Positions 27,561 to 59,576 of a stretch of DNA of 64,000 nucleotides are shown one piece after another. Where the stretch lies: the IMG/VR virus record IMGVR_UViG_2909314774_000001. One strand, given 5' to 3'. Source of the DNA: a virus (Duplodnaviria; Heunggongvirae; Uroviricota; Caudoviricetes). The position numbers and the translations under genes are program-made. How positions within the stretch are numbered: position 1 is the first letter of the stretch; the number at the start of each line of letters is the position of its first letter. The notes beneath the pieces were generated by a model. It was not told the origin of the DNA. It did not search any database and saw only the letters and a program-made list of their open reading frames with translations.

Positions 27561-27995
27561 ATGAAACCAGCAAAAATTGTTTTATTAGAACCGCAATTTT
27601 CCGGTTATTCGGGAATGTTGTGCGGCGTTCAGTTCGAGAACGGGGTGTCCGTAGCGGAGTTGCCTTTTATCGATCAGCAAAGGATTTGTGCCTCAATGCG
27701 AGCATCAACAGTCGAGGGCAAAAATGTTTCTCCGTCTGCCGCATACAGTGATCGTGGCGAGTTGACCGCAGACCTGATTACCGAGCCAGCAGCACCTGAC
27801 ATTGTGCCAATGAAACGTGGGACACCAGATGAACCGGCCAAACAGATCCAGACTTTCACACGAGAAGAGTTGGAGTCAATTGCAGACAATGAAGGCATTG
27901 CCGGTCTACGTGTGATTGGTAATCAGGTTGGTGTCAAAGCGAAAGGAATTGTCGAGATGATTGAAGGCATCCTGAAAGCACAAGGCGGTGAGTAA
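27561..27995 (+). CDS. hypothetical head-associated protein
   Basis: ORF in the head-tail joining region. Confidence 0.4.
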   Translation: MKPAKIVLLEPQFSGYSGMLCGVQFENGVSVAELPFIDQQRICASMRASTVEGKNVSPSAAYSDRGELTADLITEPAAPDIVPMKRGTPDEPAKQIQTFTREELESIADNEGIAGLRVIGNQVGVKAKGIVEMIEGILKAQGGE

Positions 27996-28828
27996 TGGCG
28001 CAGATCGACTCGTATCGTAGCGGTGAAGCTGTTTCCCTTTCATTTGCCTTCAACGTGCTGGATATCGAATCTGCTACCTACACAGTAAAGGACAGCACCG
28101 GGGCTATTCTCGTTGATGGCGAGCCGCTAGAAATTACCAGCGGTCAAATGTCGATTCCGGTTGTCGTGTCGGCTGAATATAACCAGCTCTCTGAGAAAGA
28201 ACGCGATCTGCGGTACGTCATTGTGAAGGCTGTTGCATCGGGTCTGACGCATGAAGAGCGGCAAATGTATGTTCTGCTGAATAGTTTTGAACTGTCGATA
28301 CCAGAACAGTCGTTTGCAACTGTCGCTGATGCTCAAATGCAGGCGATCGATATGCTGAATGGGGACACTTTGCTGTCGGATGGTGAAGGCTTAATGCGCA
28401 AGCGTCTCATTGAGGCTACCAGACGAATTAAAACTTTACCGTTCTCAATCCGCAAAATTCTACGTATCGACTTTGACCGATACGATCGCCCTCAAAATAT
28501 GCTGAATGTGTATGACATTCCGTGGGGAGCAGATGGAGCGTACCGGCATGATTTAGTCGATTGGGAAAAGATGACGCAGGAGAAGTTTGAAGAGTTCCCT
28601 GACTACTTCAAAGAAGCGTTGATGCTTGCCGTTGTCAACGAAGCGTGTGAGATCGCAAATGGCAATGATGTTGCCGCAGCACGAGAGGATGGCATTTTGT
28701 CAGAGTCAATCGGTGAAACAACCAACATGTACCGTACCGGTAAAGCTGCAAACGTGCATGTGGCTCGCAGTACCTGGCGCTTGCTGGTCAGTTACATCAA
28801 CAACCGTATGATTGTTCGCCGTGCGTAA
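27995..28828 (+). CDS. hypothetical head/connector protein
   Basis: translationally coupled ORF. Confidence 0.4.
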   Translation: MAQIDSYRSGEAVSLSFAFNVLDIESATYTVKDSTGAILVDGEPLEITSGQMSIPVVVSAEYNQLSEKERDLRYVIVKAVASGLTHEERQMYVLLNSFELSIPEQSFATVADAQMQAIDMLNGDTLLSDGEGLMRKRLIEATRRIKTLPFSIRKILRIDFDRYDRPQNMLNVYDIPWGADGAYRHDLVDWEKMTQEKFEEFPDYFKEALMLAVVNEACEIANGNDVAAAREDGILSESIGETTNMYRTGKAANVHVARSTWRLLVSYINNRMIVRRA

Positions 28829-29252
28829 CGCCAGTCGCATTATTTACTTTTGGTCGAAAGGGTTTTTGGCCAGTAATGAGAGCGACCGACAACAACAGAG
28901 AGAGAGCATGAATATTTCGTGGCAAACAGAAATTGCGATCTACCGCTTTGGCGCAAAGAACGTTTACGGCGAGGCGCAATTACAATTCGTCAGGAAGACG
29001 AATGTCGGCGTGGTTAAGTTCGAACAGAGTAATGAGAAATCGTCAGTTCGTGCTGATAGCTCTGGTAGTCGTGGTAAGGCGAGTCTGGAGCTGTTTGATG
29101 CTGTGTTAGTTGTCCCTTTAGAAGCGGCTGTACAACTTGATGATGTGCTGATCCTTGAAGGTCAAAAATTAAAGGTGTCCAGTGTTCATCGCCGCTGGGG
29201 GCTACGAGGAAGACCTGGGCATCTTGAAGTAGGGGCGAATATATGGGTCTGA
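28812..29252 (+). CDS. hypothetical head-tail joining protein
   Basis: ORF with overlapping start. Confidence 0.4.
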   Translation: MFAVRNASRIIYFWSKGFLASNESDRQQQRESMNISWQTEIAIYRFGAKNVYGEAQLQFVRKTNVGVVKFEQSNEKSSVRADSSGSRGKASLELFDAVLVVPLEAAVQLDDVLILEGQKLKVSSVHRRWGLRGRPGHLEVGANIWV

Positions 29253-29716
29253 AATACGATGCGCATCAGTTCAAACGTGCGGGGAATCGACTCAACAACA
29301 GCCAGAAAGCATTTAAGCGATATCTTATCCGGGACATGGAAAAGCTGGCGCGTTTGGTTGAGCGTCTCAGCCGTGCAATGGCCCCGCTGGAAACCGGATC
29401 TCTGGAGACAGCCATCTTTGCCAGGGTGATTAAAGAAGGTTATTCAGGGCTGCGTATTGAGCTTTCTGTGTCTGGAGCAAAACCACGTCAGGGGCATCCG
29501 GGCGTAGAAGTCGGTGACTATGCTAAGTACATGGAGCTGGGTAAATACCGACTCGGTTATCTTTCTCGAATGAAGAACGTGACAAACCCACCAATTGCCG
29601 GTGTTAAACCCCGTGTTGGGCCACACTTTCTGGAAAGAGCGGTGGAAATTAGCGAGAAGCAGTTCTCAGAAGCGATTCTTGAGGCTGCCAGAAAAGCCGG
29701 ATTTACGAGAGGTTAA
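29243..29716 (+). CDS. hypothetical head-tail joining protein
   Basis: ORF with overlapping start. Confidence 0.4.
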   Translation: MGLKYDAHQFKRAGNRLNNSQKAFKRYLIRDMEKLARLVERLSRAMAPLETGSLETAIFARVIKEGYSGLRIELSVSGAKPRQGHPGVEVGDYAKYMELGKYRLGYLSRMKNVTNPPIAGVKPRVGPHFLERAVEISEKQFSEAILEAARKAGFTRG

Positions 29717-29718
29717 TG

Positions 29719-30101
29719 TGTTTATTGAAGCGTTTGCAAGTTTGATGCAGAAGGCAAAGATTGGCACGGTCGGGACTGACATTTTCTGTCACTACTTGCC
29801 TGCCAATGTGAAATCTGGCGTCCTGCTTATTAACCCAAATACCGGCATCAGCATCGATCATGAGCTACAGGGCTTTTATCACGAATCATTCACAATCATT
29901 GTGCGTGGTTCGTCAATTACTACGACGGTTGAGAAAGCCCATAAAATCATTGAGATGTTTCCAGTAGAGGAAACGGAATCTGGTGGTGTTTATTTTCGAC
30001 TTGTACGACCGATGGCGATGCCAATCATTTATCCCAAAAATGATGGGGCATTAATAGAAGCAGGCATTCCTGTTGAATTTGCTGGCTATTTATTGAATTA
30101 A
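29719..30101 (+). CDS. hypothetical tail completion protein
   Basis: ORF, start inferred to follow the previous stop. Confidence 0.35.
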
Positions 30102-30175
30102 CTCAATTAGTAAGTATATACTTACTATTAGCGCAATGAATGCGTAGAATTAACGGAAAAAGGAGTTTTCCATCA

Positions 30176-30922
30176 ATGTCTAATACCCATGTAAAAAACA
30201 TCAAACTTGGTGCCTGTAAGGTGTCGTTTGGTGGTGTGGATTTGGGTTACACCAAAGGTGGTGTTCAGGTTGAAGTAGCCACTGAAACGCTGAAAGTCAC
30301 CGTCGATCAGTTGGGGCAGACCGTAATTTCCGAATTAGTTCAGGGGCGCAACATTACCATCACCGCGCCTCTGGCTGAGTCTGTACTCCAAAACATGGTT
30401 GACCTGATGCCTGGTTCTACTCTGAGCGAAGATGACAACTCTGTCACGATCACATCTGCACAGGGCGTTAACCTGATTGATGTGGCGAAGGAGCTGGTTC
30501 TGACTCCGCAGGACACCACCGACTATGTGTTGACCATCCCGAAAGCGGCAACCGCGGGCAACTTCACTATGACCTACCAGTCTGATGATGTTCGTGTGTT
30601 CTCTGTTCAGTTCAGCGCATACCCGGATGATGAAGGCGTTCTGGGCAAAATGAGCGGTCCTAAACCGGTAAAAACTGTGTCGATCTCACCGGAATCTCCA
30701 ACCGTAAAAGCTGGAGAAACTGTGCAACTGACAGCCGAAATCACTCCAGCTGATGCCGCAGACAAAACCGGTGTTTGGGAATCCGAAGACCAGGAAAAGG
30801 CCACGGTAGATCAAACGGGTCTGGTACGTGGTGTGGCGCAGGGTTCTACAAATATCTCCTTCACCAGCAATAGCGGTGGTAAGAAGGCAACTAAGTCAGT
30901 AACGATTAACCCCGCAGATTAA
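30176..30922 (+). CDS. major tail protein with C-terminal Ig-like (Big_2) domain
   Basis: RBS AAAAAGGAG; C-terminal SISPESPTVKAGETVQLTAEITPADAADKTGVWES..GVAQGST; same position and architecture as lambda gpV. Confidence 0.7.
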   Translation: MSNTHVKNIKLGACKVSFGGVDLGYTKGGVQVEVATETLKVTVDQLGQTVISELVQGRNITITAPLAESVLQNMVDLMPGSTLSEDDNSVTITSAQGVNLIDVAKELVLTPQDTTDYVLTIPKAATAGNFTMTYQSDDVRVFSVQFSAYPDDEGVLGKMSGPKPVKTVSISPESPTVKAGETVQLTAEITPADAADKTGVWESEDQEKATVDQTGLVRGVAQGSTNISFTSNSGGKKATKSVTINPAD

Positions 30923-30977
30923 TCAGTAATTAAGCAGAGGCTCAGGATGGGCCTCTCTTTTAAAAGGATTTTAACCA

Positions 30978-31295
30978 ATGACCAAATTACTCGATCTCGA
31001 TTCCATTCTGCCTCCGAAGAAAAGCATCAAATTTGGCGGTCAGGAATATCCCATCGTTGAAATGACGGTAGGTCTGTTCGTTTCCATCAAGCAGATGGAA
31101 GGCAAAGATCTCATGAACATGTCTCCTGTTGAGCAAGTGACAGCTTATGCAGATCTGGTTCGTAAGGTTATCCCTTCAGTACCTGACGAAGTTCTTGAAA
31201 AACTGACTGTTCCGCAACTCCAGCAGATCTTCACCTTCGCTATGGAAGTGATTGATGAAGAAAACGAAAAAGCGGCTGGCGAAGGGGCAAAGTAA
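30978..31295 (+). CDS. tail assembly chaperone (gpG-like)
   Basis: small acidic ORF directly upstream of the tape measure gene. Confidence 0.6.
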   Translation: MTKLLDLDSILPPKKSIKFGGQEYPIVEMTVGLFVSIKQMEGKDLMNMSPVEQVTAYADLVRKVIPSVPDEVLEKLTVPQLQQIFTFAMEVIDEENEKAAGEGAK

Positions 31296-31645
31296 TTTCC
31301 CGCGATGAATCCGGGACAAGGACCGTCTCAATAGATCTCGGATTCTATTTCAGTCGTGTAGTTGCTCACTACGCCGTGTCGCCATTAGAGCTACTGAACG
31401 TTCCTCTCACGATGTTCTGGATGCTCAGTCGCAATATAGACCGTCTGCGTGCGGAAGAGGATGTCCGCAACTTACAAGTCGCTCGTGCGTCCCAGGCGGA
31501 TGGCGAGGCTGTGAAGGCGTTCATGGAGGGTTTGCAACTCAGGATTGGAAGACCAGTCGTAACAGATAAAGTCTACGATCCAAGCCAGGATAAGGCAGAC
31601 CCTGACGCCAAAGAGCAACTGATGCAAATATTTGGCAGAGGATGA
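31259..31645 (+). CDS. tail assembly chaperone -1 frameshift extension (gpGT-like T segment)
   Basis: the -1 frame is open from about 31259 through 31645, overlapping the end of the G-like gene and ending at the tape measure start; A-rich slippery stretch near 31266-31272. Confidence 0.45.
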   Translation, partial: RKRKSGWRRGKVISRDESGTRTVSIDLGFYFSRVVAHYAVSPLELLNVPLTMFWMLSRNIDRLRAEEDVRNLQVARASQADGEAVKAFMEGLQLRIGRPVVTDKVYDPSQDKADPDAKEQLMQIFGRG

Positions 31646-31652
31646 CAAGGGA

Positions 31653-34600
31653 ATGTCACAAAACGTAGAGTTTATCCTGTCGCTGGAAGACAAACAGTTT
31701 ACAGCGTCAATCGATCGTGCGGGGAAACTGCTTACTCGATTTGGTGAGCAGGTAACAAAGCCTGCTCAAAAAATCCAAACCTTTGAACGCTCTTTGGGTT
31801 CGGTCGCCCGTATCATTGGCGTTCTGGAAAGCAAGCTCGATTCTACGGCAGATAAACTACAGGATGTAGCTGCCGGTTTTGAGCTTGCTTCAGATGCTAC
31901 GCGTAAAATGCGTGGCAACATCACCAGCCTCAATTCTGGTCTTAAAGCCCTGATTGAGCGCGTCGATACGACAACTTCTTCAGTAGATAAACTCACCGCG
32001 TCATTACGTAAAGTGCAATCAGAGCTAAATGATTTCTCTGATTGGGCGACCTATGCAAGCAAAAGCGCAAGCCGCTTTGGTACGGAGGTCAAAGAAGCCT
32101 CTGCGTCCGTGAGTGGCATGAATACGCGCCTTAATACCACGACGAAGCGACTCAGTAATTGGGGTGTCACAACGAGTCAGGCTGCCGAGGGACTGAAAAA
32201 GGTTCGTGAGCAGATGGACGAAGTTATCGGACGTCAGCAACTGATTAGCAAGCCGGTACGCGTTCGTACATCTGGAAGTGGCGATGGTGGTAGCGGGCGG
32301 CGTAGCGGCGCTTCTGGCCATAGCGGTAAAAGTAACGAAGGAGGTATGTTCTCTGGCCTTCGTGGCAACATTTTCCTGCTTGGCGAGATCGGAGATGCAG
32401 CCAGAACGGTTACTGACATCATGTTTGGATGGCAGAAGCCTATTGTTGAAGCTGCGGCCGAAATGGAACGTATGCGGGTGATGCTTCGTGGGTTGAATAA
32501 GGAGAAGTCTAACCCTGGCCAGGCTGCCGCCGATGACATGAAGTACATCGTAGACATGGCTCAAAATGCGCCGTTCGCGATGCAGGCGTTAACAGATTCC
32601 TTCGTGAAGTTTCGTTCTGCTGGCTTAGATCCAACCGATGGCTCTCTGAAGGCGCTGGTGGACTCCGTTGCTCGTTTTGGTGGTGATAGTGAGCTGTTGA
32701 AACGTGCGGCTGTGGCCGTTCAGCAGATGTCCGGTAAGGGCGTCGTGTCAATGGAAGAGCTACGTCAGCAATTAGGTGAAGCCGTTCCTAACGCGATGCA
32801 GGCAATGGCAGACGCCGCAGGCATCACTATGGGGGAACTGACTAAAGCCGTTGCCAGCGGTACGGTTGAGGCAAAACAGGCGTTGTCTCTGATGTTTGTT
32901 GGTCTGCGTGCGGAGAATGAGAACGCAGCGAAAGACATGATGCAAACCTACACAGGTGCGCTGGCGCAACTTCAGACGTCATTCACGTTATTTGCTGATC
33001 GGGTTGGTCAGGCCGGATATCTGGATTCTCTATCGAAGGGGATGAAAGAACTGGCTTCAATCATGAATAGCGCCGAAGGGATTTCGTTTGCCAATTCTTT
33101 AGGTTCGGGGTTAACAACGGCAATCGATGGGTTGCGTCAGCTTGCTCAATGGTTAGCAAAGAACCAAGAGCTGGTAATTAATCTCGGTAAGGTCGTGGCC
33201 GCGATGGTTGCGTTCAAACTGATGCGAGCAGGGATCATGGGGGTAGTTGGCGCTGGGAGCCAGATGGTTAGCACCTTTGCCACGATGGCGACCGCCATAC
33301 AGACTCCATTTAACCTCGGCGCTACAGCAGTAACTCGATTCAATCGTGCGGCACGTATGGGGCTGGCTCCGATCCCCTCTCTTATTTTCGCCATCCGTGG
33401 GGCGATTACGGGGCTTAAAGGCGCTTTTGCTGGATTAACGGCGTTCATTGCAGCAAACCCTATAGGGGCAGCATTTACAGTTGCCACTGTAGCTGTTGCT
33501 GGCCTAATCACGTACATGACCATGCTCCGCAGCGAAACTTCAAAGGTCGTTGACGAGATTAGGAAAATACCAGAAGCGATGACAGCGGCCAAACGTGCAC
33601 AAATGGCCGACCGCGCAGAAAAGCTCGAAAAGCAGATTCTTGCTGATCAACGAGCATTAAAAACTGGTGAGGGTGTTAATTACGTATCTAACTCTGCCGG
33701 TGTTATTACTCACAAAGAGTCGAAGGCTGACATCGAAGCACGCCTGAAAAAAAATCAGGAGGAGTATCAAAAGATAACCGGCACGATAGCTCTTGGTGAC
33801 GGCGCTGTAGCAAAGCGTTTGGCTAAAGAGGCTGCCGAATCTCAGATTGAGAAAATTCGAGCGGAAAACCAGATTTTCGCGGCAACATTCGTGAAAGCCC
33901 GGCAAGAGGCTCTGGATAAGATCCAGAAAATCAATGATGACGGTTCACTTTCAGATGACGAAAAGAACAAGCTATTGGCACCGTTACGTGAAACGGTAAA
34001 CAAAAGCTATCTGGAGCCTGCGCAAAAACTGGTTGATTCACTTTCTTCTCGTAAGAATGCGACCGAGAAGCAAATTGCGACTCTTAATGATCAGCTTGAA
34101 AAAGCCAAAAAGGATGGAAATACCGAGCAGATCCAGAAACTGCAAGGCAGTATTCGTGGTTATCAGGAGCATTTGGAAGCCGTTGCTCAGGAGCTGACTC
34201 AGGCAGAGTTCGAGAGAGATAACGCGGCCAAAACTGGTAAGGGCGTAATGTCAAACCAGGGGACTGTTCTTGGGTTAGGTACAACTGATAAAGCTGCTCA
34301 GAAGGCGCTGGCGCAATATATGCGAAACCAGATGGATTCTGCGACTTATCAACGTACTTTGCCTGACGGCACTCCGATGATGGACTTCGAAGGTAAGCCG
34401 ATTATTGGGCCTAAACAACTCAAGACGCAGCTTAATTTGCAGAAAGCATCCAGCGCCAGCTCTCTGGAGAAAATGAGCGATGAAGAGCGTGCCGCAGCCA
34501 TTGCTGCACTGACTAAAGCTCGTGAACAGGATGCCGCAGCCGCCGAGAAAGCAGCCCAACGATCAGCTAACGCCTCGCAGCGTGCGGCCAAGAAGGAACA

Positions 34601-36224
34601 GGCAGCGCAACAGAAACTGGCAGCCGGATACCAGAAGGCTCTGGACAAAGCCGATCAGCTTATGGGGCAAATGGGTGAAAGCTCTAAGGCTACGGTATCG
34701 TTTGATCAGTCTCTTCGCGATACAACGAAATCGCTGACAGATTTGGCTAATGCGGTTCCTAACGAGTTCATCACTCAAGAGATGATCGACAAGGCGAAAA
34801 AACGTCTTGAAGACCTCAAAAATGCGACACCTGAATATCGCGAGATGTTTAATCGCCGCAATGTTGAGCAGATGATCTCCACCTGGGCACCGGAGGCGGA
34901 TTCCATTATTAGTGCTGGCTATACGCCGTCTCGCGAAGAGAAAGTTGCTGATTTCGAAGACACCTACAACCGCAATCTCAAAGCGTTGATAGAACTTCGT
35001 GATAAGGCGTCTGATCCTAAAGTTGTGGCGCTTTATACAAAGAAAATCAATCAACTGATTGCTGCTGGCAATACCGCGCTTATTAAAGAGACGGGGATTG
35101 CGACGCAGAAGTTGGCACTGGAATACGAAAACCTGGCAGAGCAGATCGAAAGCACCTGGACTGATTTGTTTAGTGGCTTAACTGATGTCCTGACTGATTT
35201 CGTTATTAACGGGAAGATGAGCTTCTCCAGCCTATCTCAGTCCATTTTGAAAGACATCACCAATATGGTCGTGAAGTCGCAGATCACGCTGCCTCTAATG
35301 AACATGTTGGGGATGGGAACCACCGCAGCTGGTAGTTCACAGAGTGGTAATTTGCTGACCGGGGTTGCTTCCGCCGTTGCCAATCAAGGGGTACGAATGG
35401 GCAACACTGTTAACGGCGACAAGTCGGTAGGAGAAGCCACGAAGGAGACGTCCAGTTCGGTAACTGGATTGGGGCAAACGACACAGCAGACCACCAGCGC
35501 AATTGGCACAGCAACAAATGCGATTGGTAGCTGGGTATCAGGGCTATTTGATAGCACCGAAGCCAAAGATGCTGAGACAAAAGCAGTGAAGGATTCCATC
35601 TTCTCGATGCAGAACCTCAGCTCTGTTACCGGTGCTCTGTCTGCCGCGTTTGCAATGCTTGGAGCTAATGCTTCCGGCTCTGGTAATAAGTGGTTGAATT
35701 TCGGCGCGACAGTTGCATCTGGGTTGGTTTCAGTATGGGCTGGTGGTGGATTCGATGGATTGATGTCCGGTTCTTCTGGCTCAACTTCCGGGTTCAACAA
35801 TCTGACCAGTTCTGCTGCCGATGGCACGAATGGTATTCCTGCAATTCCGAAGTTTGCAAATGGTGGCATATTCGGAAAAGACGGCGTGATCCCGCTCCGG
35901 GCATACCAGAAAGGCGGTATCGCCAACTCACCTCAATTGGCGTTGTTTGGGGAAGGCGATATGAATGAGGCGTATGTTCCATTGCCTGATGGTCGAACAA
36001 TCCCTGTAACGCTCAGTACCGATGGTATGAGTGGAGGAGGAAATGTTCTTTCTCCGGTATCAATTGAGATCAACGTCCATAGTGACGGTAGCACAACTGA
36101 ATCCGGCGATACAGAAAGCATATGGAACAATGCCGCTCAACGGATGAAAGCAATCGCGCTTGAGACTATCGCTCAAGAGAAACGCCCTGGCGGATCACTC
36201 AACCCAAACACTCAACGTAACTAA
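31653..36224 (+). CDS. tail tape measure protein
   Basis: about 1520 aa, helical and low-complexity, after G/GT; RBS before ATG 31653. Confidence 0.85.
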   Translation: MSQNVEFILSLEDKQFTASIDRAGKLLTRFGEQVTKPAQKIQTFERSLGSVARIIGVLESKLDSTADKLQDVAAGFELASDATRKMRGNITSLNSGLKALIERVDTTTSSVDKLTASLRKVQSELNDFSDWATYASKSASRFGTEVKEASASVSGMNTRLNTTTKRLSNWGVTTSQAAEGLKKVREQMDEVIGRQQLISKPVRVRTSGSGDGGSGRRSGASGHSGKSNEGGMFSGLRGNIFLLGEIGDAARTVTDIMFGWQKPIVEAAAEMERMRVMLRGLNKEKSNPGQAAADDMKYIVDMAQNAPFAMQALTDSFVKFRSAGLDPTDGSLKALVDSVARFGGDSELLKRAAVAVQQMSGKGVVSMEELRQQLGEAVPNAMQAMADAAGITMGELTKAVASGTVEAKQALSLMFVGLRAENENAAKDMMQTYTGALAQLQTSFTLFADRVGQAGYLDSLSKGMKELASIMNSAEGISFANSLGSGLTTAIDGLRQLAQWLAKNQELVINLGKVVAAMVAFKLMRAGIMGVVGAGSQMVSTFATMATAIQTPFNLGATAVTRFNRAARMGLAPIPSLIFAIRGAITGLKGAFAGLTAFIAANPIGAAFTVATVAVAGLITYMTMLRSETSKVVDEIRKIPEAMTAAKRAQMADRAEKLEKQILADQRALKTGEGVNYVSNSAGVITHKESKADIEARLKKNQEEYQKITGTIALGDGAVAKRLAKEAAESQIEKIRAENQIFAATFVKARQEALDKIQKINDDGSLSDDEKNKLLAPLRETVNKSYLEPAQKLVDSLSSRKNATEKQIATLNDQLEKAKKDGNTEQIQKLQGSIRGYQEHLEAVAQELTQAEFERDNAAKTGKGVMSNQGTVLGLGTTDKAAQKALAQYMRNQMDSATYQRTLPDGTPMMDFEGKPIIGPKQLKTQLNLQKASSASSLEKMSDEERAAAIAALTKAREQDAAAAEKAAQRSANASQRAAKKEQAAQQKLAAGYQKALDKADQLMGQMGESSKATVSFDQSLRDTTKSLTDLANAVPNEFITQEMIDKAKKRLEDLKNATPEYREMFNRRNVEQMISTWAPEADSIISAGYTPSREEKVADFEDTYNRNLKALIELRDKASDPKVVALYTKKINQLIAAGNTALIKETGIATQKLALEYENLAEQIESTWTDLFSGLTDVLTDFVINGKMSFSSLSQSILKDITNMVVKSQITLPLMNMLGMGTTAAGSSQSGNLLTGVASAVANQGVRMGNTVNGDKSVGEATKETSSSVTGLGQTTQQTTSAIGTATNAIGSWVSGLFDSTEAKDAETKAVKDSIFSMQNLSSVTGALSAAFAMLGANASGSGNKWLNFGATVASGLVSVWAGGGFDGLMSGSSGSTSGFNNLTSSAADGTNGIPAIPKFANGGIFGKDGVIPLRAYQKGGIANSPQLALFGEGDMNEAYVPLPDGRTIPVTLSTDGMSGGGNVLSPVSIEINVHSDGSTTESGDTESIWNNAAQRMKAIALETIAQEKRPGGSLNPNTQRN

Positions 36225-52029: not shown

Positions 52030-52551
52030 TTATTCTTCGAACAATTTTTCGATAGATTTTGTAGGATAGAACAAAGAACGCTCGTTGTTACCAACCAGCT
52101 GGATAAAGCCTAAACTTTTATAAAACGCCTTGGCTTTGTCATTTAACGCCTCAACGAAAAGTCCATGAATGCCTACAGCAAGAGATGCATTGTACACAAC
52201 GCGCATTGCATGTGTTACAAGCATTGAGCCAAATCCTTGACCTTGAAGGGACTTGTCCAAAGCCAGCCTACCCAAAGTAACACTTGGAACATTCCGATAA
52301 GGAACCTTCTTTTGTTTGCTTCTTGAAGGTAAGGACTCCTTTTCAAAACAACTACCTGACAAAGTGTAATATCCTAACACTTTTGGCCTTTCTTCTTGAG
52401 TGCAAAGCACATAAGCACGAAGAATTTTTCCCTCATGCTGCCTTTTTAAGTGGTTGGCTAAAAAGGCGTTTAGTGACTCTTCGCCGCAATCAAAACCGTT
52501 TAGATCATAATCTTTCTCTCCAGAGAAAATCTCTATCGTTGTATTGCTCAC
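52030..52551 (-). CDS. GNAT-family acetyltransferase toxin (TacT/AtaT/KacT-like)
   Basis: GNAT motif LQGQGFGSMLV; immediately downstream of a DUF1778-type antitoxin-like gene. Confidence 0.75.
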   Translation of the reverse strand: MSNTTIEIFSGEKDYDLNGFDCGEESLNAFLANHLKRQHEGKILRAYVLCTQEERPKVLGYYTLSGSCFEKESLPSRSKQKKVPYRNVPSVTLGRLALDKSLQGQGFGSMLVTHAMRVVYNASLAVGIHGLFVEALNDKAKAFYKSLGFIQLVGNNERSLFYPTKSIEKLFEE

Positions 52552-52558
52552 GAGTAAA

Positions 52559-52828
52559 CTACTCCATGCTTTTCAGACGATCAGCAGCTCGTTTCAGCTT
52601 GTCGTTCGGTGCCGGAGGATTGCTTATAGCGTCCATAACCAGATTCCAGGATTCTTCATTCAGAACTAGTCTACGGTGTTGCTCTATAACTTTCACGGCA
52701 CGTTCAGATGCACTGCTAACCATAAACTGAGTAATGCTCTGGTTAGACATTGCGGCAGCTTCCTCGATGATGCTTTTATCGTCATCGGTTAATCTCAAAT
52801 CGATGCGCTGCTTTTTTAGTGCTGACAT
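52559..52828 (-). CDS. DUF1778-type RHH antitoxin (TacA/AtaR/KacA-like)
   Basis: about 90-aa ORF (start MSALKKQRIDLRL) 8 bp upstream of the GNAT gene. Confidence 0.7.
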   Translation of the reverse strand: MSALKKQRIDLRLTDDDKSIIEEAAAMSNQSITQFMVSSASERAVKVIEQHRRLVLNEESWNLVMDAISNPPAPNDKLKRAADRLKSME

Positions 52829-53146
52829 GTATTCCTCCTGATGGCCGTGATGTAGGAAGGCCATCAATCTCCTCTGTTCAAACTGAGTTTTCGACTCAAA
52901 AATTACTTTAAAAGGCTATAGCCCATTACGTGTGCATTATCAAATTGTGTACGGCATATCACCGTACTTGTAATATAGAGGTCATTGTTACTTTTTTCAA
53001 CAGACAAATACAAGCTATGATTGCCAATTGTTAATCACAACCTACCATTTAACCTTTACACCGCAGCCGTAGGCATTTAGGCTATATCACATATAAGAAA
53101 ACAAGTTGTTTCAGACGATAATTATATACGCAAAGGGAACTCTCCA

Positions 53147-53815
53147 ATGACCAAGATCTTTGTGGTTGGCGGCACAAAGGGCGGGCCTGGCAAATCCACC
53201 GTTGCCCAGCAAATTGCCGTTTGCCTGAAAGTCAAAAAGAAGAAGAAGGTTTATATTACCGATATAGATATTCAGCGCACGACAACGAGCTGGTGTGAAG
53301 ACCGTCGACAGAACGAAGACCTTGAGCTGATTCCTTTTGCATACGTTCAGGATGACATCATTAAGCACCTAAAATCGCTTCAGGGTAGAGCTGAGTTTGT
53401 AGTGGTAGATGCCGGTGGCTTTGACTCCGAAATTCAGCGACAAGCGATGCTGATGGCTGACGTTATCATTATCCCGCTTCGTCCTAAGCGTCGTGATTTG
53501 AAATCTCTGCGTGACATTGATCCTATTATCGACAATGTTCGTAATGTAAACGATAAAGTGAAGGTCCGCGCGGTCATGAACCAGTGCCCGGCTTTGCCAT
53601 CACAAGTGTCTCGCATTCTGGCGGCTAAAGAGATTGTCGAGACGTTTGGCATCGAGTCTGCGCCAGTCAATCTATATAACCGCAACGTCTATGATGATGC
53701 GGAAGAGTCTGGTCGTTCTATCTTTGAAATGACCGGTAGCGAGCGCGACAAAAAGGCGGAAGCCGAGTTTGAAGAATTTGTAGATTATCTGTTGAGTCTG
53801 GAGGAAGAAGAATAA
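53147..53815 (+). CDS. ParA-type partition ATPase (small type Ib, ParF-like)
   Basis: deviant Walker A GGTKGGPGKST; 222 aa; class-A palindrome 53096-53112 upstream. Confidence 0.8.
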   Translation: MTKIFVVGGTKGGPGKSTVAQQIAVCLKVKKKKKVYITDIDIQRTTTSWCEDRRQNEDLELIPFAYVQDDIIKHLKSLQGRAEFVVVDAGGFDSEIQRQAMLMADVIIIPLRPKRRDLKSLRDIDPIIDNVRNVNDKVKVRAVMNQCPALPSQVSRILAAKEIVETFGIESAPVNLYNRNVYDDAEESGRSIFEMTGSERDKKAEAEFEEFVDYLLSLEEEE

Positions 53816-54174
53816 TGTCCATGAAAATGGGTGACCTAGCAAAGCGCAAAGAGCCTGATGCACCGGCTAAGAACACAACTCCTTTGCGCCAACCAGTCAG
53901 ACCACAGGGACGCCCGACTCGTGGCAAAGAGAAAATTAAAAGCCGCACAATGTCACTGGAGGACGAATACTTCGAACTGCTGGAGATGATGAAGTTCATC
54001 CCTCGCTTCGAGAAATTCACCCGCTCTGATGTGATTCGTGCTGCTATTTTCCATCTTGCGGAGAAGACACCGCAGGAAATCGAGGACATCGTGAAACTTA
54101 ACGAGGCGATCACAGCTGCCGATGTCACGATGCGTACCGATGAAATTAAACGCGAGTTGATGAAGAAAGGGTGA
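53815..54174 (+). CDS. ParG-like small DNA-binding partner (putative RHH)
   Basis: 119-aa ORF translationally coupled to parA-like gene; basic N-terminal tail. Confidence 0.5.
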   Translation: MSMKMGDLAKRKEPDAPAKNTTPLRQPVRPQGRPTRGKEKIKSRTMSLEDEYFELLEMMKFIPRFEKFTRSDVIRAAIFHLAEKTPQEIEDIVKLNEAITAADVTMRTDEIKRELMKKG

Positions 54175-54225: not shown

Positions 54226-55932
54226 ATGGAATCGATAGAAGTATTTTTAAAAAATTTTTTGGACTCAGATCATCGGGTTGCTGTCATAAAAGGAAATTGG
54301 GGAGTAGGTAAAACGCATTATTGGAATAGCTTTTATACTAAACATTCTAAAAAATTAGATTTTAATGCATATTCATATGTTTCTTTGTTTGGAATAAATT
54401 CTATTGGAGACATTAAAAAAGCTCTTTATCATTGTGCCACACCAATTAATGAAAAGAAATATAAAGAACTGATTTTATCTGAAACGGATCGAACTATGAT
54501 TCGTTATAGAAATGGGTTTTGGGGATGGTTGAAATACAACTCCTTGTCAAAATTTTTAATACATTTTGGAAAGAACGATTTTTTTGGGTTCAAAACTGAT
54601 AATCTGCTGTCATCTCTTGAGTATAAATTTGTTAATAATTATTTGGTTTGCATTGATGATATTGAACGAAAAGGTAGTGCGCTAGAAATTAAAGAGATTA
54701 TGGGGGTAATTGATGAGTTGGCAAGAAGAAAAAATTGCAAGGTTGTTCTAATATTAAATGAAGATAACTTACATGAAGAAACTGCACAACAACAGTTTTT
54801 AGAGTATAGAGAAAAAATAATTGATGTGGAAATAAAATACGATCCCACGCCTGAGAAAAACTTAAGAAAAGTTTTTTATGAGACTGACCCTGATTTTCTT
54901 TTGTTAAAAAACCTAGTAAATGATTTAAACATCAAAAACATTAGAATATTAAATAAAATAAAATCATCTCTAGTTATATTTAGAGATGTGCTAAAGTTAG
55001 CAGAGGATAAGGTTAGAGAAAGTTTTATTAATAGATTGGTCTTATTTTCAGTGGTTTACTATTTTGGTGTTCCTAGCGTTGATTATGCTTCATTTAAGGA
55101 GTCAATCAAAAATATACATGCATTCGACTATATGTTAGATGATAAAGATGAAAAGGAAGAAGTTAACTCTGTATATTCATTTGTTAATAGCCTTGATGTT
55201 ATTTATGAACGAGCAGAAAGTGCTTTCGATGATGATATAGATTTTTACCTTAAGAACGGTTATGTTTCTTCTGAAAGCAATATTCTAAATATAATAAAAG
55301 AAAAAAATGAACAATATAGAGATAATAGGGTTTTATGTGAGGTTTATAAAATTTGGGATGTTTTTAGAAACTCTTTTAAAGATAATGAATCAGAGTTTAT
55401 TTTTCAAATTGAGCGCGTAATTAACGATAGTCTGTTGCGTATACCAATTGGACAGTTCGTAGGTTTAATAAATGTCCTAATTAAATTGGATAGAGATTGT
55501 AATAATATTATAGAGGCATATGCAGATGCTTTTGTTAATAAAGAAAATGCGTATGCTACATTTAATTCTTTGCGAGTAGAGATCTTCGGAAATGAAGAAT
55601 TAGGTTTCAGAATTGAAAAAAAATTGAAAGATAGAAATCCAGATGACTATAACTTAGATAAAATTATAAAAAAAATAGCTGGTGGAAGATTTAACCATAG
55701 TGATGTGAATATTCTTAACAGTTTTTCTAAAGATGATTACGTAAACTGGATATTATCCTGTGATCAGGATGCTTTGAATTTAGTAGAAGAGACTATGCTC
55801 AAGTTCAAGGGTATGCAACACCCGACAGACGAACAGAAGAGCATCACTGATAAAGCAATAGAAGCTTTGGAGGAAGTTGCTTCAAAATCAACACTTAATA
55901 AGCTGCGTGTTAATAAAATACTCAATCATTAA
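54226..55932 (+). CDS. KAP-family P-loop NTPase
   Basis: Walker A GNWGVGKTHYW (the G.WG.GK(S/T) form typical of KAP NTPases), Walker B LVCIDDIER; strongly AT-rich gene. Confidence 0.75.
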   Translation: MESIEVFLKNFLDSDHRVAVIKGNWGVGKTHYWNSFYTKHSKKLDFNAYSYVSLFGINSIGDIKKALYHCATPINEKKYKELILSETDRTMIRYRNGFWGWLKYNSLSKFLIHFGKNDFFGFKTDNLLSSLEYKFVNNYLVCIDDIERKGSALEIKEIMGVIDELARRKNCKVVLILNEDNLHEETAQQQFLEYREKIIDVEIKYDPTPEKNLRKVFYETDPDFLLLKNLVNDLNIKNIRILNKIKSSLVIFRDVLKLAEDKVRESFINRLVLFSVVYYFGVPSVDYASFKESIKNIHAFDYMLDDKDEKEEVNSVYSFVNSLDVIYERAESAFDDDIDFYLKNGYVSSESNILNIIKEKNEQYRDNRVLCEVYKIWDVFRNSFKDNESEFIFQIERVINDSLLRIPIGQFVGLINVLIKLDRDCNNIIEAYADAFVNKENAYATFNSLRVEIFGNEELGFRIEKKLKDRNPDDYNLDKIIKKIAGGRFNHSDVNILNSFSKDDYVNWILSCDQDALNLVEETMLKFKGMQHPTDEQKSITDKAIEALEEVASKSTLNKLRVNKILNH

Positions 55933-56897: not shown

Positions 56898-58238
56898 ATG
56901 ACCGAACTTTGCCATACAGGACGCGGGCTGTCCGAAGAGTTTGATGAAGATTTCCAGAACAGACTGACGGCATATTTTTGTCGTGATCACGAGTTTCTTA
57001 CTCGTGCGGGAGATCTGGTTGTGCCTAGCCAGTTTGCCAATGCGGCCAATGCCATATTGGTTAATATGGTTTCGGGCTATTACCGTATGTACAAGAGCGC
57101 GCCCTCTTCATCTGCAATTCTGGATATGCTTAAGCGTGCGAAACGCGATAAGACTATCCGTGAGGAACTATTCGCCGATGTTGTTGCTGCGTTTAAGCGC
57201 ATTCTTGCAGAAAAATTGTCCGATACCTCGTACATGGTTGACCAGGTATCAACCTTCGCAAAAAGTGTAGCGTTTGATGATGCTCTGATTAAGGCTGCTG
57301 AACTGAAAGAGAAAGGCGACTTTCAGGGGGCGATGGCAATCATGGCCAAGGTTCAGCAGATTGGATCGAACGAAGCGACCGGAATCTATGACTACTACAC
57401 CTCCGCAAGTGAGCGATTGAAAGCGCGTGAATATGAGGCTTCAGAGGAGTATGTACCAAACAGTATTACAACTGGACTCCCTCTTCTCGATAGGTTGCTG
57501 TACCAAAAAGGCTGGGCAAAGCGCGAAATGGTGCTCTTCATGGGGTTCGCTAAATCCGGTAAATCGACCGCAATGGGTGAGTTTTCCATAAACGCAACGC
57601 TTGCTGGCTACAATGTTCTGTATCTCTCGCTGGAGGTTCACACCACCATTTTATCCGACCGTTTTGATGCAAGATTGTCGGAGACAGAAATGTCCAAGCT
57701 GGTGGAACGGCGCGATGAGGTTCATCGTAAGTTGGCAGAGTTGGGAGCCACGAAGGGGATTGGTAGTTTGTGGGTGGTTGAGCGTCCGTCAGGAAGTATG
57801 TCACCGGCAGATCTGGACCGTATGCTTAACAGCATGAAAGCCAACGGCATGGTACCTGACATGGTTGTTGTCGACTACGCAGATTTGATGCGTGCCAGTT
57901 ATGACCTTCGTGATGATCGCGCCAACATTCGTAGTATCTACACCGATTTACGTGCTCTTTATGACAAGCATAACGTTGCTGGGATCACGGCATCGCAGAC
58001 AAACCGTGAAGGTGGAGCGTCAGAAGTTGCCACAATGATGCACGCTGCCGACAACATCGAAAAAGTACGTATTGCTGACCTGGTAATAACGATCAACAAA
58101 ACCGAAGAAGAAGAAGCGAAAGGAGAGGCTCGTCTCTACTTTGCTGGTTCACGTAACCAGCAGGGAGGGATCAGCATTCGCGTTAAACAAAACCTCGAAC
58201 AAATGCGCTTCATTGAGCGAATCTTAGACGTTACCTAA
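56898..58238 (+). CDS. DnaB-like replicative helicase
   Basis: Walker A GFAKSGKST, Walker B VVVDYADLM, SQTNREG arginine-finger region. Confidence 0.7.
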   Translation: MTELCHTGRGLSEEFDEDFQNRLTAYFCRDHEFLTRAGDLVVPSQFANAANAILVNMVSGYYRMYKSAPSSSAILDMLKRAKRDKTIREELFADVVAAFKRILAEKLSDTSYMVDQVSTFAKSVAFDDALIKAAELKEKGDFQGAMAIMAKVQQIGSNEATGIYDYYTSASERLKAREYEASEEYVPNSITTGLPLLDRLLYQKGWAKREMVLFMGFAKSGKSTAMGEFSINATLAGYNVLYLSLEVHTTILSDRFDARLSETEMSKLVERRDEVHRKLAELGATKGIGSLWVVERPSGSMSPADLDRMLNSMKANGMVPDMVVVDYADLMRASYDLRDDRANIRSIYTDLRALYDKHNVAGITASQTNREGGASEVATMMHAADNIEKVRIADLVITINKTEEEEAKGEARLYFAGSRNQQGGISIRVKQNLEQMRFIERILDVT

Positions 58239-58385
58239 AAAATAAGCGTGGAGAACACCTCCACGCTTGATTCATTGGTGAAACAACTTTTCTTTTGCCA
58301 AACCACAAAAGAAAAACACATGAGCCTTTATGTTATATCAACATTTAGGTTGGTCACAATATTGCCTGTTAAAAGTGGAATTATC

Positions 58386-59498
58386 GTGAGCGAGCTGAAA
58401 GAGCTAATTACCGAATTAGATTTTGAACAATGGTTGGATACTGAAGGTATCGTTTATCGACGTGGAGGCGTGAGTGCTCGCGGTCGTGAAGTGAATATCA
58501 AGGAATGTCCGGTATGCGGCAGCTCCAACTGGAAGGTATATTTCAATCTGACCAGTGGCGTCGGCAAATGCTTTGCTGGTGATCATCCCGAAGAGATTCA
58601 GTTCAATAAGCTGGTCTTCCTCAAGCACTACAGCGGCAAATCACGACGACAGTTCGAGGAATATGTGCAGAACGCCCTTCTTTCCCAGGGGTGGGCACCA
58701 AAGAAAGAAGAGATAGTGCTTGCAAGCACAGTCGAGTTAGAGGGACCACTTGCACTCCCTCGTCATTACGAACTTCCTATAGATGGCCGTCTTCCAGACT
58801 ATCTGGTTGAACGAAACATATCGCCTGAAATGGCAAAGTATTTTGACCTACGATACTGCGTCGAAGGCAAGCACGCCTATGTAGATCCGTATACAGATCA
58901 GGTTAAAGGACAGATATTCGATATGCGAATACTGATACCGGTTTACGATCTGGATGGGGTAATGAAGACATTTCAGGGACGAGACATTACCGGTACAGCA
59001 GAACGCCGCTACCTCTTTCCTATGCAGCTTCCAGCTTCAGGTAAGTTTCTCTACAACGGCCATAATGCAGTCGGCAAACAGACTGTAGTTGTCTGTGAGG
59101 GGGCGTTCGATGTTATGGGGGTTAAACGAGCTATTTTTGACGAAGAAACATTACGTGATTACGTGGAACCAATAGGAACGTTCGGGATGCATCTATCTGG
59201 TAACACCACTCAGGATGCAGAAGATCAGTTAGGCGCGTTCCTGACGCTCAAGGCGCGTGGGTTACGTAATGTGATCATGATGTGGGATAGTGAAAAGCAA
59301 GCTATACGTAATACGATGGCCGCAGCCAGGCGACTGACCAGTATTGGTCTTAATGTCAAAGTGGCGTGTTTGGGCGAGGAAGGACTCGACCCGGGCGATG
59401 CAACGCCAGAGCAAATCATCAAAGCCTATTATCGGGCAAAACCGTATACCAAGCAGTTGGAGTTACAAAGCAAGGTTTTGGGCATTAAGGCTCTATGA
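58386..59498 (+). CDS. DNA primase (zinc-ribbon + TOPRIM-like)
   Basis: CPVCGSS..(n)..KCFAGDH zinc-binding segment then acidic TOPRIM-like region; GTG start after SD-like AAAGTGGA; track start 58248 lies inside an upstream hairpin. Confidence 0.6.
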   Translation: MSELKELITELDFEQWLDTEGIVYRRGGVSARGREVNIKECPVCGSSNWKVYFNLTSGVGKCFAGDHPEEIQFNKLVFLKHYSGKSRRQFEEYVQNALLSQGWAPKKEEIVLASTVELEGPLALPRHYELPIDGRLPDYLVERNISPEMAKYFDLRYCVEGKHAYVDPYTDQVKGQIFDMRILIPVYDLDGVMKTFQGRDITGTAERRYLFPMQLPASGKFLYNGHNAVGKQTVVVCEGAFDVMGVKRAIFDEETLRDYVEPIGTFGMHLSGNTTQDAEDQLGAFLTLKARGLRNVIMMWDSEKQAIRNTMAAARRLTSIGLNVKVACLGEEGLDPGDATPEQIIKAYYRAKPYTKQLELQSKVLGIKAL

Positions 59499-59576
59499 TA
59501 ACAATCACCTTTAAAATAAGTAGATGATTACTTATCTTTCTGTGAGAATACTTTCATCTGTTAGCTAGGAGTTGGT

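What the first reader, a model, noticed from the sequence alone, without database searches (positions are those of the whole stretch)
53096..54174. Type Ib-like partition pair plus a replisome module imply a plasmid-like lifestyle, yet the element is contiguous with chromosomal metG
A small ParA with deviant Walker A (GGTKGGPGKST) and a coupled small basic partner resemble ParF/ParG-type partition systems. Together with the DnaB-like helicase, primase, ATP-dependent ligase and phage-type tRNAs this matches large temperate siphoviruses that are maintained as low-copy plasmids. Here the element starts directly after the metG terminator, and no integrase or right end is in the window. Either a phage-plasmid has integrated, or the contig is an assembly chimera.
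Basis: inference. Interest (0 to 1): 0.5.

Follow-up and report, generated by a model that had tools for sequence, protein, structure and literature searches.

The report
Known phage-plasmid; metG is its cargo
The two genes are the plasmid-partition operon of a well-known SSU5/pHCM2-type phage-plasmid of E. coli, and the neighbouring metG is a second copy carried by that plasmid, so nothing is integrated or misassembled.

Summary
A 222-aa ParA with a deviant Walker A (KGGPGKST) lies at 53147-53815. A translationally coupled 119-aa partner lies at 53815-54174. A DnaB-like helicase, a primase, an ATP-dependent ligase and three tRNAs follow.

The "phage maintained as a plasmid" reading is right. 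The window is collinear over 56 of 64 kb, at 90-98% identity, with the closed circular 111.7-kb plasmid pECOH89. It also matches phages SSU5 and Cyrano.

The puzzle dissolves. Only 2598-5886 (apbC-metG) resembles the chromosome, and phage-plasmid DNA flanks it on both sides. The same metG junction occurs in 199 complete E. coli genomes; every listed example is a ~107-114-kb plasmid. The par module occurs at 262 places in 261 genomes, all on plasmids. Phage-plasmid-borne metG is already published. So this is neither an integration nor a chimera.

ParA aligns end to end with TP228 ParF. The partner belongs to a narrow orphan family. It shows no detectable similarity to ParG, its ribbon-helix-helix fold is unproven, and no centromere repeats were found.

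Seen in passing: a 13-bp palindrome (AAACAAnTTGTTT) sits just downstream of the parA promoter and at 12 other intergenic sites in the window. It points to element-wide regulation.

The finding as stated is already known, so interest is low.

The parts
53040..53117 (+). Conserved non-coding block upstream of parA. It holds a promoter-like -35 TTTACA (53055-53060), a 17-nt spacer and a -10 TAGGCT (53078-53083), followed by the palindrome.
   Evidence: The block is 77/78 identical in SSU5 and in Klebsiella pJN2-26, although the whole module is only 86% and 80% identical. Homology to all relatives starts sharply at about 53040. I read the hexamers by eye; the consensus scan did not call this pair.
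53099..53111 (.). 13-bp palindrome AAACAAGTTGTTT. It is one copy of a dispersed promoter-proximal element and a likely operator or leader element for parAB.
   Evidence: There are 29 strand matches at 14 distinct palindromic sites with up to 2 mismatches, against 2.8 expected. Each of the 13 examined sites lies about 13-15 nt after a -10-like hexamer and before an RBS. pECOH89 has 18 sites against 0.27 expected.
53147..53815 (+). parA: a small (222 aa) deviant-Walker-A partition ATPase, ParF-like, with no N-terminal DNA-binding extension.
53815..54174 (+). Partner gene (119 aa), the presumed centromere-binding and ParA-stimulating protein. It has a basic disordered N-terminal tail with a conserved MGDLAKR motif and a helical C-terminal domain.
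   Evidence: The TAATG overlap with parA is. The partner always directly follows the ParA gene in SSU5, pJN2-26 and two divergent contigs. Conservation is, models. It matches phrog_5111, unknown function.
52030..52867 (-). GNAT-toxin/TacA-antitoxin addiction module (toxin 52030-52551, antitoxin 52559-52867). It is variable cargo on the left of the par module.
   Evidence: Pfam gives Acetyltransf_7/1 and TacA1 at E 8.6e-26. The module is annotated KacT toxin plus antitoxin in phage Cyrano. It is absent from pECOH89 (gap 51990-53039).
54226..55932 (+). KAP-family P-loop NTPase at 29% G+C. It is variable cargo on the right of the par module and a candidate anti-phage defence gene.
   Evidence: Pfam KAP_NTPase. 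PADLOC PDC-S49 at E 1.6e-21. G+C is 0.293 against 0.468 for the window. It is absent from pECOH89 (gap 54176-55935).
56898..62210 (+). Replisome module: DnaB-like helicase (56898-58238), primase (58248-59498) and ATP-dependent DNA ligase (60888-62210).
   Evidence: Pfam DnaB_C, DNAG_N/Toprim_2 and DNA_ligase_A_M. The module is collinear with pECOH89 genes annotated the same way.
63637..63883 (+). tRNA-Asn(GTT), tRNA-Tyr(GTA) and tRNA-Thr(TGT).
   Evidence: ARAGORN and Rfam.
2594..5885 (.). Captured chromosomal segment carried by the phage-plasmid: apbC/mrp (2594-3694, minus strand) and metG (true CDS 3852-5885, plus strand).
   Evidence: Homology to K-12 mrp-metG covers only 2598-5886. MetRS is 98.7% identical in protein with HLGH and KMSKS intact, and has 96 synonymous against 9 non-synonymous codon differences. 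ApbC is 94.8% identical. The segment is annotated metG/apbC on ~110-kb plasmids and in phage Cyrano.
2167..2556 (+). humD-like S24 peptidase (UmuD' type). This is phage-plasmid DNA immediately left of apbC.
   Evidence: Pfam Peptidase_S24. It is 84-86% identical to P1/P7 humD DNA. A terminator-like hairpin lies at 2568-2588.
14910..15512 (-). FljA-family protein (Flag1_repress). It is one candidate binder of the dispersed palindrome.
   Evidence: Pfam PF03614 at E 2.5e-84. phrog_1444 'transcriptional repressor'. In the phage collection, the 12 matches covering at least 80% of the protein are all SSU5-like records.
21855..36224 (+). Virion module: terminase large subunit (21855-23111), portal (23138-24712), major capsid (25647-26522) and tape measure (31632-36224).
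   Evidence: One alignment piece (13622-42030, 97.9% identical) maps onto pECOH89 genes annotated this way.

Best explanation
The window is about 58% of an SSU5/pHCM2-group phage-plasmid of E. coli, a roughly 110-kb temperate siphovirus that lives as a low-copy circular plasmid.

**The par operon.** Genes 53147-54174 are its partition operon.
- ParA is a small ParF-like Walker ATPase.
- The partner is made by coupled translation.
- Inferred mechanism: the partner binds plasmid DNA through its C-terminal domain. Its basic N-terminal tail, with the conserved MGDLAKR motif, stimulates ATP hydrolysis by ParA. ParA dimerises with ATP on the nucleoid. Plasmid copies are then moved apart before division, as in other type Ib systems.
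- The operon is transcribed from a very conserved promoter. Its early transcribed region carries a 13-bp palindrome shared with the element's other promoters, so par expression is probably tied to an element-wide regulator.

**Neighbours.** The par module sits between two swappable cargo slots. Here these hold a GNAT toxin-antitoxin pair and a KAP NTPase defence candidate.

**metG.** The apbC-metG block is a captured, intact, purifying-selected copy of a chromosomal segment. It belongs to the plasmid and is not a chromosome junction.

**Shown versus inferred.** Shown: the identity of the element, the ParA family, gene coupling, extrachromosomal location in relatives, and the cargo status of metG. 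Inferred: DNA binding and ATPase stimulation by the partner, the centromere, and the regulator.
For: **Identity of the element**
- The window is collinear with closed circular pECOH89 over 56,265 of 64,000 bases at 90-98% identity.
- It matches phages SSU5, Cyrano, CMS-2020a and PhiR41_1, and 720 plasmid records, 687 of them non-mobilizable.
- Cyrano/pLF82 has a measured copy number of 5.5 and produces siphovirus particles (PMC9928086).
- SSU5, pHCM2 and pECOH89 are classed in the SSU5 supergroup of phage-plasmids (PMC7969092).

**Location**
- The par module is at 262 places in 261 of 5,426 complete E. coli genomes, all on plasmids and none on chromosomes.

**metG as cargo**
- A single alignment piece (470-9269) spans both flanks of apbC-metG.
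- K-12 homology covers only 2598-5886.
- The whole metG junction is present in 199 genomes; the listed examples are ~110-kb plasmids.
- The gene is intact and under purifying selection.
- 'Phage-plasmid borne metG' is described in Shigella sonnei (Tam et al. 2024, medRxiv 10.1101/2024.10.27.24316207, as cited in PMC12452169; pWPMR2 in 10.1101/2025.09.12.675607).

**ParA**
-.

**Partner**
- The ParA-partner gene order is conserved down to 48% partner identity.
- The N-terminal motif and the basic tail are conserved.

**Promoter and palindrome**
-.
Against: - No repeat array of the kind that forms type Ib centromeres was found within 280 bp upstream or in the downstream intergenic DNA, either here or in a cargo-free relative.
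- The only hints of a ribbon-helix-helix fold are sub-threshold RHH_1 matches in two distant family members and a low-probability but in-register alignment to CopG.
- The window holds neither the replication initiator nor the ends of the contig, so the topology of this particular molecule is inferred from relatives.
- No partition function has been shown experimentally for this ParA/partner pair in any paper I could find.
Confidence: 0.92

Rival explanations
1. A phage-plasmid, or a prophage derived from one, has integrated into the chromosome next to metG, and the window shows its left junction.
For: apbC and metG are adjacent and divergent in the K-12 chromosome just as they are here. Integration of P1-like phage-plasmids into chromosomes has been reported (PMC10879196). 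A chromosomally integrated plasmid with the SSU5 repB/parA region is mentioned for S. Agona (10.1101/2025.09.12.675607).
Against: Chromosome-like DNA is only 3.3 kb and has phage-plasmid DNA on both sides. The chromosomal neighbours yehE and yehF are absent. The same two junctions are present in closed circular plasmids. In 5,426 complete E. coli genomes, none of the 262 par-module places is chromosomal. The metG copy is only 94.6% identical in DNA to K-12 metG.
Confidence: 0.03
2. The contig is an assembly chimera that joins a chromosomal metG contig to a plasmid contig at about 5900-6050.
For: A housekeeping gene sitting next to phage genes looks suspicious. Nearly every E. coli chromosome matches part of the region at 90-95% identity.
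Against: The junction sequence 5500-6400 is found whole in 199 independently assembled complete genomes, at up to 100% identity. A second junction on the other side of apbC (humD-terminator-apbC) is also shared with these plasmids. Phage Cyrano was annotated independently with a MetRS gene.
Confidence: 0.01
3. The 119-aa partner is not only a centromere-binding protein. It would also be the global regulator that binds the dispersed AAACAAnTTGTTT palindromes, so that these sites serve together as centromere and operators, as KorB does on RK2 or omega on pSM19035.
For: One palindrome lies in the parA promoter region, and no other centromere candidate was found. The residues of the putative DNA-binding strand (I41, R44, S47) are invariant across the family while the palindrome is also kept.
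Against: Yersinia pestis pMT1 keeps six palindromes at homologous promoters (0.17 expected). It has no ParA or partner homologue by tblastn and uses a large ParA/ParB pair instead. Other regulators are available: the FljA-family protein at 14910-15512 and a 'transcriptional regulator' next to the integrase in pECOH89.
Confidence: 0.08
4. The ParA-like ATPase has a role other than plasmid partition. It might position something in the cell like MipZ, as some automatic annotations name it, or take part in defence.
For: The top Pfam match is MipZ. Some RefSeq records call it 'division plane positioning ATPase MipZ'. Candidate defence and addiction genes flank it.
Against: The best solved relatives over the full length are the plasmid partition proteins ParF/ParA of TP228, whereas the MipZ alignment covers only residues 2-128. 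The protein is the size of type Ib ParAs, with a coupled small basic partner. It is a fixed backbone module of an element that must be inherited as a low-copy plasmid, while its neighbours vary.
Confidence: 0.04

Closest known systems
SSU5_pHCM2 group of phage-plasmids (Salmonella phage SSU5, S. Typhi pHCM2, E. coli pECOH89, Escherichia phage Cyrano/pLF82, S. sonnei pWPMR2)
   Same: The gene order is the same over 56 kb, covering the virion module, lysis genes, par module, replisome module and tRNAs. The par module is 98% identical to pECOH89 and 86% to SSU5. The E. coli and Shigella members carry the same apbC-metG cargo.
   Different: Only the cargo slots and the tail-fibre region differ from pECOH89. 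The window has a GNAT toxin-antitoxin pair, a KAP NTPase and a Gp38-type adhesin gene at places where pECOH89 has other genes.
ParF-ParG-parH of Salmonella plasmid TP228 (type Ib partition)
   Same: It has a small deviant-Walker-A ATPase that aligns over nearly its full length with the window's ParA (E 1.2e-10). A small partner gene lies immediately downstream, and that partner has a flexible basic N-terminal tail.
   Different: The window's partner is 119 aa against 76 aa for ParG and shows no detectable sequence similarity to it (hhalign probability 0.1%). No parH-like array of short repeats lies upstream.
delta-omega of pSM19035 and IncC-KorB of RK2 (partition proteins that double as global regulators with dispersed sites)
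   Same: A short repeated or palindromic site occurs at many promoters of the element, including the par promoter.
   Different: The palindrome survives in pMT1, which lacks this ParA/partner pair. The binder is therefore probably another protein.
ParA-ParB-parS of phage-plasmid P1 (type Ia)
   Same: It does the same job in the same kind of element, a temperate phage kept as a low-copy plasmid. This comparison rests on established knowledge of P1.
   Different: P1 ParA is large and has an N-terminal regulatory DNA-binding domain, and P1 ParB is a large helix-turn-helix protein. Here both proteins are small. The related pMT1 carries a large ParA/ParB pair annotated as AAA ATPase plus ParB family protein.
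Phage-plasmid-borne metG of Shigella sonnei (Tam et al. 2024, medRxiv 10.1101/2024.10.27.24316207)
   Same: It is a second methionine-tRNA ligase gene on an SSU5-type phage-plasmid.
   Different: I could not read that paper itself, so identity of the window's element with pWPMR2 was not tested.

Membership tests
Type Ib plasmid partition system | Small Walker-type ParA with a deviant Walker A (KGGxxK[ST]) and no N-terminal DNA-binding domain | tested here: met
   The protein is 222 aa with KGGPGKST starting at residue 11. It aligns full-length to ParF, which is 206 aa.
Type Ib plasmid partition system | Small partner gene directly downstream in the same operon | tested here: met
   There is a TAATG overlap preceded by GGAGGA. 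The gene order is conserved in SSU5, pJN2-26 and two divergent contigs.
Type Ib plasmid partition system | Partner is a dimeric DNA-binding protein (usually ribbon-helix-helix) with a flexible N-terminal tail that activates ParA | tested here: inconclusive
   The tail is predicted disordered and basic. For the fold there are only sub-threshold RHH_1 matches in two distant members (E 0.005 and 0.11) and a weak in-register CopG alignment. No fold match was found.
Type Ib plasmid partition system | Cis-acting centromere made of repeats next to the operon | tested here: not met
   No repeat array lies upstream or downstream. The only constrained non-coding DNA is the 78-bp promoter block. The site may lie elsewhere or may not be repetitive.
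Type Ib plasmid partition system | Stabilises an unstable replicon | not testable with these tools
   This needs a plasmid-loss assay.
ParF/ParG (TP228) subfamily | ParA homologous to ParF | tested here: met
   E 1.2e-10, residues 9-199 aligned to ParF residues 8-189.
ParF/ParG (TP228) subfamily | Partner homologous to ParG | tested here: not met
   hhalign of the family profile against ParG gives probability 0.1%. There is no Pfam or PDB-sequence match.
SSU5_pHCM2 phage-plasmid group | Collinear backbone shared with reference members, including virion genes | tested here: met
   56.3 kb is collinear with pECOH89. The window matches SSU5 and Cyrano.
SSU5_pHCM2 phage-plasmid group | Plasmid replication initiator (RepB type) on the same molecule | not tested
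   In relatives it lies outside the window (pECOH89 101-1315). The window ends about 22 kb short of it.
SSU5_pHCM2 phage-plasmid group | Extrachromosomal maintenance | tested here: met
   This is shown for relatives only. All 262 par-module places are on plasmids, and Cyrano has a copy number of 5.5. The topology of this contig itself cannot be tested.
Integrated prophage at metG | Chromosomal genes continue on the outer side of the junction | tested here: not met
   Beyond apbC lies humD and other phage-plasmid DNA, not yehE. K-12 homology stops at 2598 and 5886.
Integrated prophage at metG | Integrase and att repeats at the junction | tested here: not met
   No integrase was identified in the window. 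The junction DNA holds a hairpin and two promoter palindromes, not a repeat of a distal site.

The most novel reading that the evidence does not exclude
SSU5-type phage-plasmids may run nearly all of their transcription units through one short palindrome, AAACAAnTTGTTT. These units include parAB, the helicase-primase genes, nrdB and the terminase/virion operon.

The palindrome lies about 13-15 nt after the -10 hexamer. It would be read by an element-encoded regulator, possibly the FljA-family protein at 14910-15512. FljA's Salmonella namesake acts on an mRNA leader.

The ParA partner (phrog_5111) would then be a new family of centromere-binding protein whose centromere is not a classical repeat array.

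I found neither point described in the searchable literature.
Probability: 0.3. Interest if true: 0.5.

Novelty: already known. Interest (0 to 1): 0.15.

Why it matters
The result is mainly a caution for genome scanning. Phage-plasmids of this family carry a near-perfect copy of two housekeeping genes, so a contig can look chromosomal, integrated or chimeric when it is none of these.

The metG copy has clinical relevance. A phage-plasmid-borne metG has been linked to antimicrobial survival in epidemic Shigella sonnei (as cited in PMC12452169).

The partition operon is the device that keeps a 110-kb phage genome in a dividing population at about five copies per cell. Its partner protein and centromere are still uncharacterised, and a stability assay could fill this small gap.

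Tried and rejected
**Centromere.** I looked for repeats with seed-6 repeat searches in 52860-54230, in 55900-56900 and in a cargo-free Klebsiella relative. I also looked for k-mer matches of the upstream 107 bp to the rest of the window. I found only chance-sized pairs and the dispersed palindrome.

**Partner fold.**
- Pfam on the window protein, on 12 family members and on 6 distant members.
- phmmer and a profile hmmsearch against PDB sequences.
- Two AlphaFold models (mean pLDDT 64 and 70).
- hhalign against ParG and CopG.

Nothing was significant.

**Wider family search.** A profile search of 1.84 billion representative proteins found only 18 members.

**Partner as palindrome binder.** I set this aside because pMT1 keeps the palindromes without the partner.

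**Terminators.** I rejected the perfect 12-bp inverted repeat at 54176-54204 as a terminator. No T run follows it, the scan did not call it, and homology to pECOH89 ends at 54175. The hairpin after metG (about 5910-5931) was also not called by the terminator scan, because its T run is short.

**Other.** Rfam found only the three tRNAs. The preprint 10.64898/2026.08.19.745698 could not be opened.
Full report
**What is at the coordinates**

ORF 53147-53815 (+) encodes a 222-aa protein that begins MTKIFVVGGTKGGPGKST. The deviant Walker A, KGGPGKST, starts at residue 11. The protein matches Pfam MipZ, AAA_31 and CbiA above threshold. It also matches phrog_164 'ParA-like partition protein' at E 4e-51.

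Its best solved relatives are the TP228 partition ATPase ParF/ParA (4dzz, 5u1g) at E 1.2e-10. That alignment runs from residue 9 to 199 of the window protein and from 8 to 189 of the 206-aa ParF. MipZ aligns only over the N-terminal 128 residues.

The next ORF, 53815-54174, starts at an ATG that overlaps the parA stop codon (GAATAATG) and follows a GGAGGA Shine-Dalgarno sequence. Its first 47 residues are very basic (pI 11.4) and the rest is acidic.

So the observed objects are real.

**What the element is**

The 4 kb around the pair matches phages SSU5, Cyrano, CMS-2020a and PhiR41_1. It also matches 720 plasmid records, nearly all non-mobilizable and mostly from Klebsiella, Escherichia, Enterobacter and Salmonella.

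I assembled the closed circular plasmid pECOH89 (NC_023916.1, 111,741 bp) from three fetches and aligned the window to it. The window runs collinearly, in reverse, from pECOH89 position 87,881 to 22,855. In total 56,265 of 64,000 bases align at 90-98% identity.

The pECOH89 annotation places these genes in the aligned part: terminase, portal, major capsid, tape measure, tail genes, the par pair, helicase, primase and ligase. These genes lie just beyond the window: a site-specific integrase, DNA polymerase III alpha and a RepB-type initiator.

These elements are the SSU5 supergroup of phage-plasmids (PMC7969092). One close relative, Cyrano/pLF82, was measured at 5.5 copies per chromosome and produces siphovirus particles (PMC9928086).

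**The metG puzzle**

The first 9 kb of the window matches plasmids of roughly 110 kb (listed records 107-240 kb) annotated with metG and apbC, and phage Cyrano annotated with 'MetRS'. A single alignment piece, window 470-9269, crosses humD, apbC, metG and the genes after it in pECOH89.

Against the K-12 chromosome the only similarity is window 2598-5886. This reaches from four bases inside the apbC stop to one base past the metG stop. The chromosomal neighbours yehE and yehF are absent.

The true metG CDS is 3852-5885, because the listed TTG ORF starts too early. Its product is 98.7% identical to K-12 MetRS and keeps HLGH and KMSKS. The two genes differ at 96 synonymous but only 9 non-synonymous codons, so the copy is functional and under purifying selection. 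ApbC is 94.8% identical.

All 12 listed examples are plasmid records of about 107-114 kb. Chromosomes match only the metG part of the query.

The par module (53040-54175) occurs at 262 places in 261 of 5,426 complete E. coli genomes. Every one is on a plasmid.

A phage-plasmid-borne metG has already been described in Shigella sonnei and linked to antimicrobial survival (Tam et al. 2024, as cited in PMC12452169; pWPMR2). So the element does not 'start after metG'. metG is cargo inside it, and neither integration nor a chimera is needed.

**The partner protein**

The partner belongs to a very narrow family. The 5.8-billion-protein search found 25 proteins. A profile search of 1.84 billion cluster representatives found 18. 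All named members are 'hypothetical'. The family is phrog_5111, unknown function.

In SSU5, Klebsiella pJN2-26 and two divergent contigs the partner always follows the ParA gene directly.

Conserved features down to 25% identity are:
- an N-terminal [MF]G[DG]L-K motif;
- a basic PQGRPTRGK stretch;
- I-K-S-R-T-M-S-x-E-D-E;
- F-T-R-S-D-V-I-R-A-A.

The last two features look like the strand and second helix of CopG-type ribbon-helix-helix proteins. The evidence for that is thin:
- Sub-threshold RHH_1 matches occur in two distant members, at exactly that position (E 0.005 and 0.11).
- An in-register but low-probability alignment to CopG was found.
- Against ParG the profile shows nothing (probability 0.1%).

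The AlphaFold monomer models (mean pLDDT 64 and 70) show a disordered tail and four helices. They match no solved fold.

I conclude that the partner has the build of a type Ib centromere-binding protein but is not a demonstrable ParG relative.

**Centromere and promoter**

No repeat array was found upstream of parA, downstream of the partner, or in the longer intergenic region of a cargo-free relative.

There is instead a 78-bp block (53040-53117) that is 77/78 identical in SSU5 and pJN2-26, while the module as a whole is only 86% and 80% identical. I read it as a promoter, with TTTACA, a 17-nt spacer and TAGGCT, followed 15 nt later by the palindrome AAACAAGTTGTTT.

Even in contigs whose partner is only 48-64% identical, the -10 hexamer and the palindrome are kept, while the -35 and spacer regions change.

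**The palindrome is not private to par**

It occurs at 13 intergenic sites in the window at up to one mismatch. Counted at up to two mismatches, there are 29 strand matches against 2.8 expected. Each site lies about 13-15 nt after a -10-like hexamer and shortly before a ribosome-binding site and start codon.

Two copies lie at 5970 and 6021, directly after metG. One lies before the helicase gene, and two lie before the terminase operon. pECOH89 has 18 sites (0.27 expected). These include sites before nrdB and the cobT-like gene.

Yersinia pestis pMT1 is a relative that lacks this ParA and partner and uses a large ParA/ParB pair. It still has six palindromes at homologous places. This argues that the binder is not the partner.

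One candidate binder is the FljA-family protein at 14910-15512 (Pfam Flag1_repress, E 2.5e-84). In the phage collection, its 12 matches covering at least 80% of the protein are all SSU5-like records. Another candidate is the regulator next to the integrase in pECOH89. I found no description of this motif in the literature I could search.

**Surroundings**

The par module is a fixed backbone piece between two variable slots.
- On its left is a GNAT toxin with a TacA-type antitoxin. It is absent from pECOH89 and present in Cyrano as KacT.
- On its right is a KAP NTPase at 29% G+C that matches the PADLOC candidate defence family PDC-S49. It is also absent from pECOH89.

**Verdict**

The objects are real and the 'plasmid-like lifestyle' reading is right. 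The apparent contradiction comes from taking a plasmid-borne metG for the chromosomal one. The element, its ParA and its metG are all on record, so the finding is already known and of low interest.

What remains open is small: the partner's fold and binding site, and the element-wide palindrome.

Noticed in passing
window 5970, 6021, 8061, 9256, 9633, 10118, 11021, 11771, 12255, 21145, 21170, 53099, 56866 (each site 13 bp): A dispersed palindrome, AAACAAnTTGTTT, usually preceded by AGA. It lies about 13-15 nt after a -10-like hexamer and before an RBS at many transcription units. pECOH89 has 18 sites and pMT1 has 6, far above chance. It looks like an element-wide operator or mRNA-leader signal, and I did not find it described.
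   Followed up: partly
window 14910-15512 (-): A 200-aa protein of the FljA family (Pfam Flag1_repress, E 2.5e-84) sits in the only minus-strand gene block of the window. In the phage collection, full-length matches are all in SSU5-like records. It is a candidate regulator for the palindrome. It also has a weak sub-threshold Hfq-like match at residues 146-188.
   Followed up: partly
window 2598-5886: The captured chromosomal segment ends almost exactly at the stop codons of apbC and metG and keeps the shared intergenic promoter region. metG differs from K-12 at 96 synonymous and 9 non-synonymous codons. The donor lineage was not identified.
   Followed up: partly
window 54226-55932: A KAP-family NTPase gene at 29% G+C matches the PADLOC candidate defence family PDC-S49. 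It occupies a slot that holds other genes in pECOH89 and SSU5.
   Followed up: partly
window 52030-52867 (-): A GNAT acetyltransferase toxin with a TacA/DUF1778 antitoxin lies in the variable slot left of par. It is an addiction module that would reinforce plasmid maintenance.
   Followed up: partly
window 17835-19863: Two consecutive ParB_N-domain proteins and an ABC-type ATPase lie just upstream of the terminase operon. They are conserved in pECOH89 and pMT1. Since pMT1 has its own ParAB, they are probably not partners of the ParA studied here.
   Followed up: no
window 49665-50504: A T-even-type Gp38 tail-fibre adhesin gene (Pfam GP38, E 5e-70) follows a 1761-aa fibre gene. The region 45834-50533 is largely unmatched in pECOH89, which suggests a swapped host-range module.
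   Followed up: no
window 54176-54204: A perfect 12-bp inverted repeat (TATATTGGGCGT / ACGCCCAATATA) begins one base after homology to pECOH89 ends, which is the boundary between the par module and the KAP cargo. No T run follows it.
   Followed up: no
window 2167-2556: A humD-like S24 peptidase gene is 84-86% identical in DNA to humD of the unrelated phage-plasmids P1, P7 and D6. This suggests exchange between phage-plasmid families.
   Followed up: no
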